From NCBI GenBank assembly GCA_964016885.1, contig OZ024740.1, positions 123,194,001 to 123,258,000 of the forward strand: a stretch of 64,000 nt of DNA, given 5' to 3'. The notes below the pieces were generated by a model that was not told the DNA's origin, made no database searches, and saw nothing but the letters and a program-made list of their open reading frames with translations. A program made the translations under genes and the position numbers. Positions within the stretch are counted from its first letter, which is position 1; every line of letters begins with the position of its first letter. The DNA is from Eledone cirrhosa (taxonomy: Eukaryota). Shown here in pieces: positions 1,507 to 63,331 of the stretch.

Positions 1507-2340
1507 TAACTAAAAATTGATTAACATATAAATATACATGAATAATCACAGGAGATCATTTTTGCTCGCGTGTAACCACGCATAGTTAGTATAGGTAATA
1601 TTTACCTTTAAGAGTGATTAACCTTCCTTGTATATATCCCATTAAAGAAATATATTTCACCAATTAATCAGATGGTAAGTAATATGCTCGGATTTATCTT
1701 TGAGCTTAATTTCCAAGATATATGGCGCATGCATTATGACATGATACCCATAATTTCGATCTAGATTAAATTCATTTAATTTATTTTATCTTAATTTTGG
1801 ATTTAGATATATATATACGGCTCCTTAATTGTAGAGCTATTTCTGTTGAAGAGAATTTGTCTGCTATTTCTAGTTGTCGAATACCCATTCTCGCCACTGA
1901 AACGAAACCGCTATCTTGTGTAGACACAACACGTGGTAACGGCTAGTTGAAGATTTGAACTCATTCTGTAAGGACGAATAGCTGGACATTATTACACTTT
2001 CCTTGTTGACAATTCCATAATATCCACTTTCCGTGACTTACCATCTGATTAATTGGTGAAATATATTTTTTTAATGGGATATATACAAGGAAGGTTAATC
2101 ACTCTTAAAGGTAAATATTACCTATACTAGCTATGTGTGGTTACACGCGAGCAAAAATTATCTCCTGTGATTATTCATGTATATTTATATGTTAATTAAT
2201 TTCTAGTTATTATAATATGCTCGGATTTATCTTTGAGCTTAATTTCCAGGATATATGGCGCATGCATTATGACATGACACCCATAATTTCGATCTAGATT
2301 AAATTCATTTAATTTATTTTATCTTAATTTTGGATTCATA
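1507..2340. mobile_element. (TA)n-flanked pseudo-LTR-like cassette with an inverted and a direct partial duplication
   Basis: 1507-1680 is the reverse complement of about 2037-2210; 1681-1803 repeats 2214-2337 directly. Confidence 0.75.
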
Positions 2341-2373
2341 TATATATATATATATATATATATATATATAAAT

Positions 2374-2535
2374 CATCATCTACATCATCATCATCATTTT
2401 ACATCCGCTTTTCCCTGCATGCAAGGGCTCGACGGGTCCTATTCAGCACATCATCTCTCCACTTGTCACGGTCTTTCGTCATCACCTCGGTGAGTTTCAG
2501 CGATCTGAGGAGTGCTCTCACCACATCCGCCGATG
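2374..2535 (-). mobile_element. RTE LINE 3' end fragment (family B)
   Basis: Translates to EVMTKDRDKWRD; same 3' end as 7450-7555; (GAT)n tail. Confidence 0.8.
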
Positions 2536-2633
2536 TTTTATATATACAGGTATATATACATACACATATATACCATATACATATATATACACACACATAT
2601 ACCATATACATATATATATAGAGAGAGAGATAT

Positions 2634-3652
2634 CATCATCATCATCACCATCATCTTCGTTTAACATCCATCTTCCACACTAGCATGGGTTAGACGGGAG
2701 TTGTCCCACATGAGGCAAGGTTGGTCGGGCGACCGTGTCTCGCTCATATAGGACTATCTGGTAGGTTTTCTATGGCTGGATGCCCTTCCTAACACCAACC
2801 ACATTTAGAGTGTGGAACTGGGAACTTTTAACCGTGTTACCTACACGGCCACATACAGCGTAGACTGTGTGTCTTTTTGTTGTGACACCTACACGATCTT
2901 GATCTCATTATCTCATCTATTTGGACTGGATGTTGTGGTACCAACTTTACAGAGAGAGGGTGGTGTTGGTGGGAGTGGGAGGATAGGGTAGGGGTAGTGG
3001 ATTGGTGTGTATATTTGGTTACGAGGTGCCTACTGACTGTAGGTTTCGCTTTGTACGTAGGCAAGGTGGGTCTTCTGTATTACTCTGTAGCGCCAAAGAT
3101 CTCGGTACAGTGACATTGTCTTAGAGAGGTGCAAATGTGTAAGGTCTGAATTTATCACATCGTCCCAGGTTTTTCTGGGTCTACCTGCTCTGTAACTACC
3201 ATCAATTTTGATCGCCGTGCACTTTTTAATACAGCTGTCGTCTTTCATGCGCATCACGTGGACATACCAACGTAGTCTTCTCTCAAGTAAACAGCATCTG
3301 ATCCCTCTTATTCCTAATTTCTAACTTAGTTCATTTATGCTTTGCCGTTCACGTATATTACTATTACACATCCAACGGAGCATGCATACTTCCTTCCTTT
3401 CCAATCTACGTAGGTCCTCTTCACGAAATGCCCATGTCTCACTGCCATGTAGCATTGTTGTTCGTATACAGGCATCATACAATCTGCCTTTCATTTTTAG
3501 AGCGAAACCTTTTGTGGCTAACAGCGGTATAAGCTCTCTGAACTTTTTCCATCACGTTCTGACTCTGGCTACTGTACTTTCAGATCACCCTCCACCACTG
3601 CTGATTTCATCACCCAGCTAACGGAAGGTGTCTACTCTTTCTATAGAACCAT
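2634..3652 (-). mobile_element. 5'-truncated decayed RTE LINE (RT C-terminus and 3' UTR)
   Basis: [11 protein letters not shown] and LYDACIRTTMLHGSETWA-type motifs; (GAT)n tail. Confidence 0.9.
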
Positions 3653-3837
3653 ATATATATATATATATATATATATAAACACAGACACAGATATATATAT
3701 ATATATATACACACTTATAAATGTATGCACATGTACATATACAGCCACAAAGACACCAATATGTGTAAAAGAAATCACGCAGACATACTAGTATGTTAAA
3801 ATGAAAGCATAATACATTTTAAAAAAATGTATATAAT

Positions 3838-4023
3838 AATTGTTTCTACTTTTGACACAAGACAGCAATTACCCGATGCATTACGGGTACTTTATTTTAC
3901 CGACCCCGTAAGGATGAAAACCAAAGTTAACCTCGGCGGGATTTGATTTGAACTCAGACCATAAAGGACCGTAACTCTATGCTGCAAAGCGTGGTGTCTG
4001 ACTCTCTACCGATACTGCCAATT
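3838..4023 (-). mobile_element. tRNA-derived SINE family 1 (Meta-SINE-like central domain)
   Basis: B-box GAGTTCAAAT plus a GCCGAGGTTAACTTTG..TCATCCTTACGGGGTCG..AAAATAAAGTACC core shared by about 10 copies. Confidence 0.85.
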
Positions 4024-4039
4024 GTATATCATAATGAGG

Positions 4040-60439: not shown

Positions 60440-60616
60440 GTTTGGCCCAAGACCAGCGATTACCCCAGTGCACCACTGGTACTTTATTTTATCGAACTCT
60501 TAAGGATGAAAGGCAAAGTTAACCTCGGCGGATTTGAACTCAGAACGCAAAGGGCCATAAATATGCTGCAAAACATGGTATCTGACGCTCTACCAATACT
60601 GCCAAACCACTGCCCT
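60440..60616 (-). mobile_element. SINE family 1
   Basis: Consensus match. Confidence 0.8.
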
Positions 60617-60849
60617 TCAAGTTAATATGGCCCACAGTAAAGTTGATATGGCCCGCAGAATGTGTGAGGGCGTACTGTTGTACTTCTTAATATATGTATA
60701 ATAAAATTTAATTGATCAAAAGAACATTTAATTTATTAATATTTGTATTTTAATATATATATATATATAAATAAAAAAAAAAATATATATATATATATAT
60801 ATATATATATATATATATATATATATATATATATATATATATATATATA

Positions 60850-62063
60850 TATTCATTGGTTAAGCAAAACAAGACCACAAATTTCACAAGGAAGACATTA
60901 TTAAAAGATTGTCAACATATTTTAGTTTGCTGTAAGGAATGTAGAGAATAATAAAATTATATTATTATTATTCTCTACATTCCCTACATCAAACTAAAAT
61001 AATATTAATAATAATAATGTCCATTTACAATTGTTTCGCTACTCCATATAATATTTCTGGATCAAATGACTATTTATCATTATTGATCTGGTTCAGTTGA
61101 AAATAATTAACATATTTAAAAACAGAGCGGCTCATCGGATCTTCAAAGGATTATAAATTAAAATAAGGAGAGAATGTTACATAATGTAATGTTCCATATA
61201 TTGGTATTTCACTATGATGTCCTGGGTGTATCAGTTGTAAGCCATAACCAAGCAGTATTCATCTGTCGAGGCTGCATTGTGTGAGATCTGCCTATGGGTT
61301 CACAATGCAGCCTCGATAGATGAATACTGGTTGATTATGACTGACAATCGATACATCCAGGACACTATAGTGAAATACCAATATATGTAACATTACATTA
61401 TGTAATATTCTCTCCTTATTTTAATGTATATTCCTTTGAAGTTCCGATGAGCCGCTCTGTTTTTAAATATGTTAATTATTTTCAACTGAACCAGATCAAT
61501 AATGATATATAGTCATTTGATCCAGAAATATTATATGGAGTAGCGAAACAATTGTAAACGGACATTATTATCATTAATATTATTATTCACCGCGGTGGAT
61601 TGGCAGTATCTGTAGAAGGTCGGACGCCATGCTTTCCAGGATAGTTACGTCCCTTAACGATCTGAATTCACATCCCGCCGAGGTTGACTTTGCCTTTCAT
61701 CCTTACGGGGTCGATAAAATAAAGTACCAGTAATGCACTGGGTAATTGCTGGCCTTGTGCCAAAAGTAGAAACAATTATTAATATTATTATTATTATTCT
61801 CTACATTCCTTACATCAAACTAAAATATGTTGACAATATTTTTAATAATGTCTTCCTTGGGAAATTTGTGGTCTTGTTTTGCTTAACTAATGAATATTTC
61901 TAGCCCTGCACGCCTAACTGCTGCATGAACCCAGCCACCTAGCTGCTTTCTACTGCATATTGCACATTGAGCACATGCCTTTACGCTTTGGCTTCTAACT
62001 AATTCACCACTCTCTCCTCTCCTATCTCCTCTCCTATCTTTAAGATTGGTTACTCTTGCACTG
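60850..62063. mobile_element. ORF-less fold-back of the 10742-13152 pseudo-LTR family, with a SINE (61590-61781) in the right arm only
   Basis: Arms 60850-61283 and 61301-61897 are reverse complements; the right arm continues as the reverse complement of 10742-10910. Confidence 0.9.
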
Positions 62064-62124
62064 TATATATATATAGAAGAGATGAATATAAAATGAAAGT
62101 GCTTTTATAAAAGAATGTATTAGG

Positions 62125-62242
62125 TATTGACATATGTTTCTGTAACAGACGGAATAACTATGTATCGCTGCTTGCGTAATCATATAATGTTAGCAAGTAT
62201 TCGATAGCAAATGTATAATCAGTTGTCACTTCTTCAGAGATA
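62125..62242 (-). ncRNA. Type I hammerhead motif with about 90-nt stem II domain
   Basis: tat(c)t-CTGAAGA-a-gtgaca..tgttac-a-GAAA-catatg-TC-aata. Confidence 0.7.
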
Positions 62243-62898
62243 TTGGATAAAGTGGAAACAATCAGAAACATTGAAGTATTTATATTAGTTGTAAGAAAGG
62301 AAGAAGAGAGGGGATAGAATATGACAGATGGCAATTCAATTTACTGGTAAACAAGTATATAGAAGGTTTTTAATGAGAATACAATGAGTATATGGCTTAT
62401 TTTTTCTAAATAAGAATTTTTGGGAGTGCCTATTTTAATCTATATTTGACCAATTGAACAATGGACAGGGTTGGTCGTTTGGTGTAGTAGTATTAATAGA
62501 GATATAAAGTGTCAATTAAGGAAGAGGAAGATTTTCACTGCTACTGTATAACAACAATGCTGGTAGCCTGCTGGTATATGCACTAGGGAATTGAATTAAG
62601 AAATCTCCTTTTATCTATAGCAGTTTACATTAAATGGTAAAGAATAGAAGAGTTGATAGAATTAAGACTAATAGAGAATGTTAATATGTATTTTGACAAT
62701 CAAACGGAGATGGAGACAGGCGTTCAATCCTGGTTGTATTTGTAATATGAAAATGTAGATTTCAAGCGATGGTTACAGTATAACGATCGCTCTATTCTGT
62801 TATTTAATAAAATATTTTTTGATCTCATAATACAAAATAATTCCATATTACACAATTTACAAAATTCCTGTCCGTGGGATTATGCAGGGGCAGGAGCT

Positions 62899-63331
62899 TT
62901 TATTAAAATAACAGATTAAAGTTTAAGCAAAAAATCGCTGCTTTCACCCTTAACGGGATCTTCTGAAACTAAAAAAGTCAGTCTGTGAAAGCAGAAGTAA
63001 ATATTTCAAAAAACGTTGCAACCGAAGGAAGAGAGTAAGACGATACTTTGGTTCGTGGAAACGTTCCCTAGCAAAGAACGGAAAAAAAAACGAAGATAAA
63101 ACGTCATTATTTGGTGCGGTGCAATAATGACGTTTTATTTTCGTTTTTTTCCGCTCTTTGCCAGCAAACGTTTCCACAAACCAAAGTATCGTCTTCCTGT
63201 CTTCCTTCGGTTGCAACATTTTTTGAATTATTTACTTCTGCGTTCACAGATTGACTTTTTTGTTTCAGAAGATCCCGTTAAGGGTGAAATCAGCGATTCT
63301 TTGCTTAAACATTAATCTGTTATTTTAATAA
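62899..63331. mobile_element. About 430-bp palindrome of the 34950-35140 family, with a CAGAAGA motif in each arm
   Basis: Arms are reverse complements about a centre near 63118. Confidence 0.85.

What the first reader, a model, noticed from the sequence alone, without database searches (positions are those of the whole stretch)
1507..63331. About 14 fold-back cassettes, most bounded by (TA)n: a systematic palindrome-generating process
Seen: inverted arms at 1507-2210, 10908-13152, 18340-19290, 23110-24740, 25368-25920, 26303-31070, 31204-33990, 35471-35606, 37650-38240, 41724-41821, 41932-42982, 43464-44035, 60850-61897 and 62899-63331. Where an ORF exists it is 5'-truncated where an inverted copy of the element's own 3' region begins. 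Arms differ by substitutions and by one-sided insertions, which argues against read-chimera artefacts. Known: inverted pseudo-LTRs occur in Penelope. Inference: (TA)n is self-complementary, so both nicked strands could prime reverse transcription from element 3' ends, making inverted ends the rule. The resulting long hairpins would be substrates for ADAR or Dicer if transcribed.
Basis: partly seen in the sequence, partly recalled or inferred. Interest (0 to 1): 0.78.

Follow-up and report, generated by a model that had tools for sequence, protein, structure and literature searches.

The report
Two-armed Penelope insertions in TA repeats
Most of these hairpin-shaped repeats are real insertions of Penelope-like jumping genes into TA repeats, a known layout, and across the genome they almost always pair one short and one long fixed end, which likely means that both cut DNA strands start copying at two set sites on the element's RNA.

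Summary
All 14 inverted pairs exist, and their ends sit at (TA)n far beyond chance (10 of 14; null mean 1.0). They are not one kind. Nine belong to Penelope-like (PLE) families with coding relatives (Hydra clade, Neptune-like), three are short tandem units with the same layout, and two (18338-19293, 35465-35612) are TA-centred local duplications of neighbouring DNA. The inverted copy, one-sided tail and (TA)n targeting of PLEs are published, and this scan has noted two-armed PLE insertions in other genomes.

New here is a strict rule. In four families, 68 of 69 head-to-head insertions join one short and one long fixed 3' end. Both ends sit on 2-7 nt of TA in the element. In 14 of 29 cases the arms are not nested, which argues against the published self-priming model. 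This favours twin priming from both nicked strands at two internal start sites (inferred).

(TA)n is neither necessary (published non-TA cases) nor sufficient (10 of 28 to 19 of 22 copies inverted, by family). No read or RNA evidence was obtained, so the ADAR/Dicer idea is untested.

The parts
1508..2336 (+). Family E, 533-nt non-coding tandem unit: inverted short-end arm 1508-1680, partial unit 1680-1803, unit 1804-2336 (long end); (TA)n at 1452-1507 and 2338-2369
   Evidence: link to PLEs inferred from layout only
10743..13150 (-). Family A (Hydra-clade PLE): 5'-truncated copy 12730 to 10743 (long end, 166-nt tail), inverted arm 12731-13150 (short end); (TA)n on both sides
13692..17015 (-). 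Family D PLE with an open 931-aa frame (14210-17002), short end, no inverted arm; used as the reference for family D
18338..19448 (+). RTE LINE 3' end 18902-19428 with (GAT)n tail, and an inverted local copy 18338-18733 across TA runs 18736-18898: TA-centred duplication, not a PLE arm
23135..24726 (+). Hydra-type PLE RT fragment (23455-23972) and 3' region with inverted arm 23135-23451; outer ends blur into simple repeats
   Evidence: this family was not searched in the genome
25368..26183 (+). Family F, about 487-nt non-coding tandem unit with inverted arm; hammerhead-like core seen in a relative
26157..26240 (.). Small TA-centred hairpin between the family F end and the family B long end
26268..31068 (-). 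Family B (Neptune-like PLE, RT plus C-terminal GIY-YIG): copy 29785 to 26268 (long end), inverted arm 29786-31068 (short end, followed by (CT)29 and (TA)n); LINE-like insert 26812-27167 in one arm
31198..34077 (+). Hydra-clade PLE C-terminus with inverted short-end arm 31198-31473, long end at 34077; type I hammerhead fold in both arms (near 31302 on -, 33891 on +)
35465..35612 (.). TA-centred hairpin: 48-nt inverted copy of the end of the neighbouring repeat (35409-35512), placed at the 5' junction of a truncated Hydra ORF (35617-36246, +)
37651..38296 (+). Relative of family D: head-to-head 3' ends with a hammerhead core in both arms and a 59-nt tail 38238-38296
41717..41907 (+). Family J: 3' end of a Hydra-type PLE, short arm plus long arm
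41932..43126 (+). Family I: 3' UTR of a Neptune-like PLE; both arms run into an element-internal (TA)n, tail 43088-43126 on the right only
43465..44036 (+). Family G, 526-nt tandem unit with a hammerhead-like core: short arm 43465-43611, long arm 43613-43900, then a TA-centred tail-to-tail copy 43927-44036
60853..62063 (+). Second family A insertion: short arm from 60853, long arm to 62063, SINE 61585-61776 in the long arm only
62899..63421 (+). Family C (Hydra-clade PLE): short arm from 62899 (abuts the 5' end of another Hydra fragment, not TA), long arm to 63421, then (TA)12

Best explanation
Twelve of the 14 cassettes are two-armed insertions of Penelope-like retroelements or of their likely non-coding dependants in (TA)n, and each was likely made by twin priming, in which both nicked strands of the TA tract would prime reverse transcription, one at a short-end and one at a long-end start site on the element RNA. 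Shown: head-to-head arms, two fixed 3' ends per family, pairing of unlike ends, 2-7 nt of TA/AT in the element at each end, independent 5' truncation of the arms, and junction overlaps mostly of 1-5 nt. Inferred: the GIY-YIG nuclease nicks both strands; each (TA)n 3' end pairs with the AU motif at one start site, and self-complementary (TA)n lets both strands use the same motif; the two cDNAs stop independently and are joined by microhomology; one asymmetric complex on one RNA or one source locus explains why the ends are unlike. When the second primer misses the RNA, a one-armed copy results. Occasionally it folds back and copies neighbouring DNA (35465-35612). The RTE case (18338-19293) is a TA-centred local duplication whose enzyme is unknown.
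For: Proteins: RT and GIY-YIG Pfam hits; Hydra motifs in families A and C and in the 31615 and 35617 ORFs. End pairing: 68 short+long, 1 long+long and 0 short+short in families A-D, counted by hand; 47 of 48 in the sets whose query did not favour an end. Microhomology at 10 family ends is 4,4,4,7,4,3,4,2,2,4 nt against a null mean of 0.97 (P=5e-6). Nesting in family A: 15 nested, 14 non-nested, 3 about equal. In several copies the long arm lies wholly inside the tail, so no fold-back could make it (L019, L033, L135, L186, L210, L092, L094, L097). Arms of one insertion share non-majority variants more than arms of different insertions: A 41% v 14%, B 30% v 7%, C 19% v 2.5%. RTE control: 0 of 25 copies with a visible 5' end carry a same-family inverted piece. 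In vitro, the anole PLE protein nicks and extends both strands, has two RT start sites that bound the tail, and is predicted to be a dimer (PMC11167929).
Against: No biochemistry and no reads. [quoted passage not shown] Microhomology is only 2 nt at the family D long end and the family G short end, and the values were read by eye. The family A long end shows 0-6 TG units (0 or 1 in 20 of 50), so its register is not fixed. Deletions at palindrome centres could turn nested arms into non-nested ones, and gene conversion could cause the shared variants. Two exceptions are long+long (L118; L296 in family J). Many copies have no inverted arm (18 of 28 in family D). Loci are the best-scoring matches, not a random sample.
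Confidence: 0.65

Rival explanations
1. Self-priming: one RNA (antisense, as proposed for rotifer Penelopes) or one cDNA folds back on itself and is copied, giving a hairpin that is integrated whole.
For: Published model (PMC3846280). It fits the 15 nested family A copies, the small palindromes at some junctions (L003, L016, L024) and the variants shared between arms.
Against: It predicts nested arms, yet 14 of 29 are non-nested and several long arms lie wholly in the tail. It does not explain TA microhomology at both outer ends.
Confidence: 0.13
2. A host process makes the palindromes: (TA)n breaks or extrudes, the 3' end folds back on itself and repair copies whatever DNA lies beside it, with no need for retrotransposition.
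For: True at least locally. The arms at 35465-35612 share 3 non-majority variants (1 absent from 14 other copies), and the RTE arms share 6 (4 absent from 29 other copies). TA-centred hairpins occur at 9 of 674 TA runs against 1 of 427 other microsatellites (p=0.053).
Against: It gives TA-centred hairpins, whereas 12 of 14 cassettes have TA outside and fixed family-specific ends. RTE copies in the same TA-rich DNA show 0 of 25. The TA-centred excess is not significant.
Confidence: 0.1
3. Each cassette is two separate insertions (or two RNAs from different loci) meeting in one TA tract or at one break.
For: TA tracts here are hot spots with many neighbouring insertions. The tail-to-tail pair at 43791-44036 shares no private variant. 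Arms differ in SINE content.
Against: Separate events would pair end types at random and leave TA between the arms; junctions are mostly direct with 1-5 nt overlap. Arms share variants. The SINEs differ in subfamily and junction, so they look like later independent insertions.
Confidence: 0.1
4. The palindromes are sequencing or assembly chimeras.
For: Fold-back chimeras are a known long-read artefact (recalled). No reads could be laid on the window.
Against: Arms differ by 3-16% and by insertions. Ends fall on fixed family positions at dozens of loci. One junction recurs in 8 segmental duplicates on contig C8.
Confidence: 0.02

Closest known systems
Insertion units of endonuclease-bearing Penelope-like elements: partial tandem (pseudo-LTR), adjacent inverted 5'-truncated copy, one-sided 30-40 bp tail (PMC8557442, PMC3846280, PMC8969392)
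   Same: Head-to-head arms, 5' truncation, tandem pLTR in full-length copies (L124, L201, L202, L206), tail at one end only.
   Different: Tails here are 35-166 nt. The short+long pairing is nearly absolute and the arms are often non-nested; I did not find these counted in the texts I read.
Hydra clade PLEs, (TA)n-targeting (PMC8557442 section 11)
   Same: RWK-like and DKT motifs, CxCX5C linker, CxxC and CxH around the endonuclease end, (TA)n target, hammerhead in one family.
   Different: No tree was built, so placement rests on motifs. TA microhomology at both start sites is not mentioned in the parts read.
Anole Poseidon PAc in vitro (PMC11167929)
   Same: Both strands nicked and extended; two internal RT start sites that bound the tail; AT-rich target.
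   Different: PAc starts at a site not homologous to the cut DNA, whereas here both sites carry 2-7 nt of target-like TA. That paper's scenario (parts 1-2 read) does not derive the inverted arm from the second primer.
LINE-1 twin priming (abstract start of PMC2837659 in the listing; details recalled)
   Same: Second nicked strand primes a second cDNA in inverted orientation; the two are joined by short microhomology.
   Different: In L1 the second primer lands at variable internal sites and the pieces do not overlap. Here both sites are fixed near the 3' end and the arms overlap, which makes the palindrome.
Non-LTR retrozymes, non-autonomous PLE derivatives (bioRxiv 10.64898/2026.07.22.740005)
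   Same: Families E, F and G are 487-533 nt non-coding tandem units that insert like PLEs.
   Different: A complete hammerhead fold was not shown for them: only a core in F and G, none in E.

Membership tests
Endonuclease-bearing Penelope-like elements | Single ORF with RT and C-terminal GIY-YIG endonuclease | tested here: met
   Family B: RVT_1 8.6e-8 and GIY-YIG 3.6e-6, 710-aa frame in L126. Family D: 931-aa frame with a weak RVT_1 hit below cut-off. Hydra-type ORFs had no Pfam hit and rest on motifs.
Endonuclease-bearing Penelope-like elements | Partial tandem (pseudo-LTR), inverted 5'-truncated copy, one-sided tail | tested here: met
Endonuclease-bearing Penelope-like elements | Hammerhead ribozyme in the pLTR | tested here: inconclusive
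   A full type I fold in both arms of 31198-34077; core plus hairpin in family D and 37651-38296; none found for A, B or C. No Rfam hammerhead among the 150 of 158 matches listed.
Endonuclease-bearing Penelope-like elements | RT groups with PLE/telomerase RTs on a tree | not tested
   No reference PLE proteins were fetched and no tree was built.
Hydra clade | RWK and DKT motifs, CxCX5C linker, CxxC and CxH motifs, (TA)n target | tested here: met
   RWR and DKT in family C (L202), QWK and KT in family A (L201); CxCX5C in the 31615 and 35617 ORFs; CxxC and CRH in 35617-36246; definitions.
Neptune clade (families B, I; D less clear) | CX2-5CxxC linker before the endonuclease | tested here: inconclusive
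   CX4CxxC is present in B and D, but the linker is shared with other clades and no tree was built.
Non-LTR retrozymes (families E, F, G) | Short non-coding tandem units | tested here: met
   533, about 487 and 526 nt tandem units
Non-LTR retrozymes (families E, F, G) | Type I hammerhead in each unit, self-cleaving | tested here: inconclusive
   Core motif only in F and G, none in E; cleavage cannot be tested here.
PLE insertion (cassettes 18338-19293 and 35465-35612) | Arms are PLE 3' ends | tested here: not met
   An RTE 3' end, and a copy of the neighbouring repeat

The most novel reading that the evidence does not exclude
PLE integration is an obligately asymmetric twin-priming reaction. 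One complex holds two fixed internal start sites, each carrying an AU motif that pairs with a nicked (TA)n end, and one strand always takes the short site and the other the long site. The RT can stutter there, telomerase-like, adding (CT)n or (TG)n. This would explain the tail, the inverted pseudo-LTR and (TA)n targeting by one mechanism and displace the self-priming model.
Probability: 0.45. Interest if true: 0.62.

Novelty: new member of a known kind. Interest (0 to 1): 0.4.

Why it matters
How PLEs form their tandem/inverted structures and choose microsatellites is named as an open question in PMC8557442. This genome holds many copies per family (965-4459 first-look candidates per query in the family searches; lower bounds, not copy numbers). 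The pairing rule and the non-nested arms separate the competing models and give exact start sites to mutate in vitro. As a class of sequence, the cassettes are ordinary PLE insertions. Their density means that many long hairpins could form if transcribed, but nothing here shows transcription.

Tried and rejected
Reads: no listed holder is on record as RNA, and laying runs on 60853-63421 gave no result, so there is no read evidence either way.

Rfam gave only sub-threshold microRNA-like hairpin matches, which I treat as noise.

I considered one-sided SINEs as proof of two different RNA templates and rejected this: the SINEs at the shared ATT-rich site differ in subfamily, truncation and junction.

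I looked for ADAR traces in genomic copies. A>G did not exceed T>C in families A, B or the RTE control, and family D leaned the other way (p=0.049). This says nothing about editing of transcripts.

A general TA fold-back process got only weak support (p=0.053).

L053 first looked long+long; a longer stretch showed a full-length tandem copy ending short.

One search was swamped by simple repeats and one search failed; one search is the RTE control. One search was in the wrong frame; one search gives the motif.

Paper searches found no paper counting end pairing, nesting or TA microhomology in PLE insertions. The library lacks most subscription papers, including the 2005 and 2006 PLE papers cited for the tail, and I did not see the supplements of PMC8557442 or PMC11167929, which may bear on this.
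Full report
Setting. The window lies on contig C1 of a 3.0-Gb genome, and about 5% of it is (TA)n. It is filled with RTE LINE pieces, a tRNA-like SINE and Penelope-like elements (PLEs). The host was not identified.

Observation. Self-BLAST recovers all 14 inverted pairs, with arm identity of about 84-97%. 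Ten of 14 have an arm end within 12 nt of a TA run of at least 8 nt, against a null mean of 1.0 and a maximum of 6 in 2000 random placements; with runs of at least 12 nt the figures are 9, 0.6 and 4. The arms are asymmetric: one end usually runs on for a further 35-166 nt before reaching TA. Artefact is unlikely. Arms are diverged, ends fall on fixed family positions at many loci, and one junction recurs in 8 segmental duplicates. No reads were obtained.

What the cassettes are. Nine belong to PLE families with coding sequence in the window or in relatives.
- Family A: 10743-13150 and 60853-62063. Family C: 62899-63421. Also 23135-24726, 31198-34077 and family J (41717-41907). These carry, or are linked to, ORFs with Hydra-clade motifs.
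- Family B (26268-31068) has RT, a CX4CxxC linker and GIY-YIG, and family I (41932-43126) is the 3' UTR of a related element.
- 37651-38296 is related to family D, whose 931-aa frame lies at 14210-17002.
Three are non-coding tandem units of 533, about 487 and 526 nt (families E, F, G) that insert with the same layout; their dependence on PLEs is inferred.
Two differ. 18338-19293 is an RTE 3' end duplicated in inverted form across a TA run; its arms share 6 non-majority variants, 4 of them absent from 29 other copies. 35465-35612 is a 48-nt inverted copy of the neighbouring repeat end, sharing 3 such variants (1 absent from 14 other copies), at the 5' junction of a Hydra ORF. These two were most likely copied from local DNA. 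The tail-to-tail pair at 43791-44036 shares no variant and could be either a fold-back or a second insertion.

Genome copies. I fetched the best-matching loci per family and extended 40 stretches. These are best matches, not a random sample. I dropped window self-hits and duplicates: 7 segmental duplicates of L032, plus L070, L088, L064 and L176.

Each of families A-D has two fixed 3' ends, 166, 35-39, 86 and 47-62 nt apart. Among head-to-head insertions with both ends readable, hand counts give A 32, B 13, C 15 and D 8 short+long pairs. There is one long+long (L118) and no short+short. Seventeen of the A pairs came from a query on the long end; without these and the four window cassettes the count is 47 of 48. 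Families E, G, J and the 31198-34077 family mostly follow the rule, with one more long+long (L296) and some atypical ends. The share of copies with a visible inverted arm is 19 of 22 (A, neutral query), 21 of 29 (A, long-end query), 14 of 26 (B), 15 of 29 (C) and 10 of 28 (D). The flanks seen were often only 1.5 kb, so these are lower bounds. RTE copies show a same-family inverted piece in 0 of 25 cases with a visible 5' end (29 examined); 3 have older, 68-73% identical inverted pieces nearby.

Start sites. Full-length tandem copies (L201, L124, L133, L202, L206) show what the element reads beyond each end. At 10 ends in families A-D and G the overlap with alternating TA is 4, 4, 4, 7, 4, 3, 4, 2, 2 and 4 nt. 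Random junctions on the same templates average 0.97 nt and reach 4 in 4.9% of cases (P for the sum 5e-6). The values were read by eye, and family D has three long-end sites with 2 nt each. The family B short end is often followed by expanded (CT)n of 5-40 units, whereas read-through copies keep 2 units in 19 of 20 and never more. The family A long end has 0-6 TG units. This may be RT slippage at initiation or later microsatellite drift; I cannot separate them.

Arm geometry. In family A the long-end arm reaches further 5' in 15 cases, the short-end arm in 14, and 3 are about equal. Direct junctions mostly overlap by 1-5 nt. In at least eight copies across A, C and D the long arm lies wholly inside the tail, so the two arms share no sequence. 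A single fold-back cannot make these unless later deletion removed most of one arm. Arms of one insertion share non-majority variants more often than arms of different insertions (A 41% v 14%, B 30% v 7%, C 19% v 2.5%), pointing to one RNA or one source locus, or to conversion. One-sided SINEs at an ATT-rich site of family A differ in subfamily and junction and look like later independent insertions.

Mechanism. The best reading is twin target-primed reverse transcription. Inferred steps: both strands of (TA)n are nicked; each 3' end pairs with a short AU motif at one of two internal start sites; both cDNAs truncate independently and are joined head to head. It is not required for inverted ends, which are published with ordinary target duplications (PMC3846280), and it does not make them obligatory. 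Rivals are antisense or cDNA self-priming (contradicted by non-nested arms), host fold-back at TA (fits the two local duplications; 9 of 674 TA runs against 1 of 427 other microsatellites, p=0.053), and two separate insertions (contradicted by unlike ends and direct junctions).

Literature seen.
- PMC8557442, passages and section 11: inverted 5'-truncated copy, 30-40 bp one-sided tail, (TA)n targeting in Hydra and Naiad, and the mechanism named as open.
- PMC11167929, parts 1-2 of 4: both strands cleaved and extended, two RT start sites bounding the tail, predicted dimer, start site not homologous to the target.
- PMC3846280, passages and Discussion: self-priming model.
- PMC8969392, PMC9977147 and PMC13282606, passages; the last two added nothing on this layout.
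- bioRxiv 10.64898/2026.07.22.740005, part 1 of 5.
L1 twin priming is recalled, apart from an abstract start in the listing. Six searches found no count of end pairing, nesting or TA microhomology in PLEs. Supplements and the older subscription papers were not seen. Earlier notes of this scan describe two-armed PLE insertions in other genomes as ordinary and hold none for this genome.

ADAR and Dicer. A transcript across 37651-38296 would fold into one long hairpin (-408 kcal/mol, z -41). No RNA run is listed, and genomic copies show no A>G excess. The idea is untested.

Verdict. The feature is real, and as a structure it is the known PLE insertion unit in new family members. The added value is a quantitative rule that makes an open mechanistic question testable. 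Interest 0.40.

Noticed in passing
window 31072-31130; L063, L074, L076, L084, L085, L089, L090, L128: The family B short end is often followed by (CT)5-40 before (TA)n, while the element itself has two CT units there; the family A long end varies from 0 to 6 TG units. Possible telomerase-like stutter at RT initiation, or later microsatellite drift.
   Followed up: partly
window 61585-61776; L002, L006, L007, L009, L010, L014, L015, L018-L020, L023, L025, L027, L030: A tRNA-like SINE with an (ATT)n tail has inserted again and again at one ATT-rich site of family A, with different subfamilies and junctions, sometimes right at the inversion junction (possible template switch).
   Followed up: partly
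L019 (G000:C27:5936740-5939248): Array of about 240-nt short+long mini-cassettes separated by (TA)n: a two-armed insertion amplified into a small satellite.
   Followed up: no
window 14210-17002 (-): Open 931-aa PLE frame with an Asn/His-rich N-terminal part and no inverted arm; recalls the Asn-rich inserts described for rotifer Penelopes (PMC3846280).
   Followed up: partly
L118:1489-1754: A family C arm skips from the short-end ATAT to a second ATAT motif inside the tail, as if the RT or primer jumped between TA microhomologies.
   Followed up: no
   Followed up: no
window 32431-32744: About 300-nt T-rich low-complexity tract inside the 3' region of the Hydra element 31198-34077.
   Followed up: no
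L115:1390-1504, L231, L232, L235, L242, L300, L132: Other TA-centred hairpins in the genome; in L115 the two family C short ends face each other and share a private base next to the TA.
   Followed up: partly
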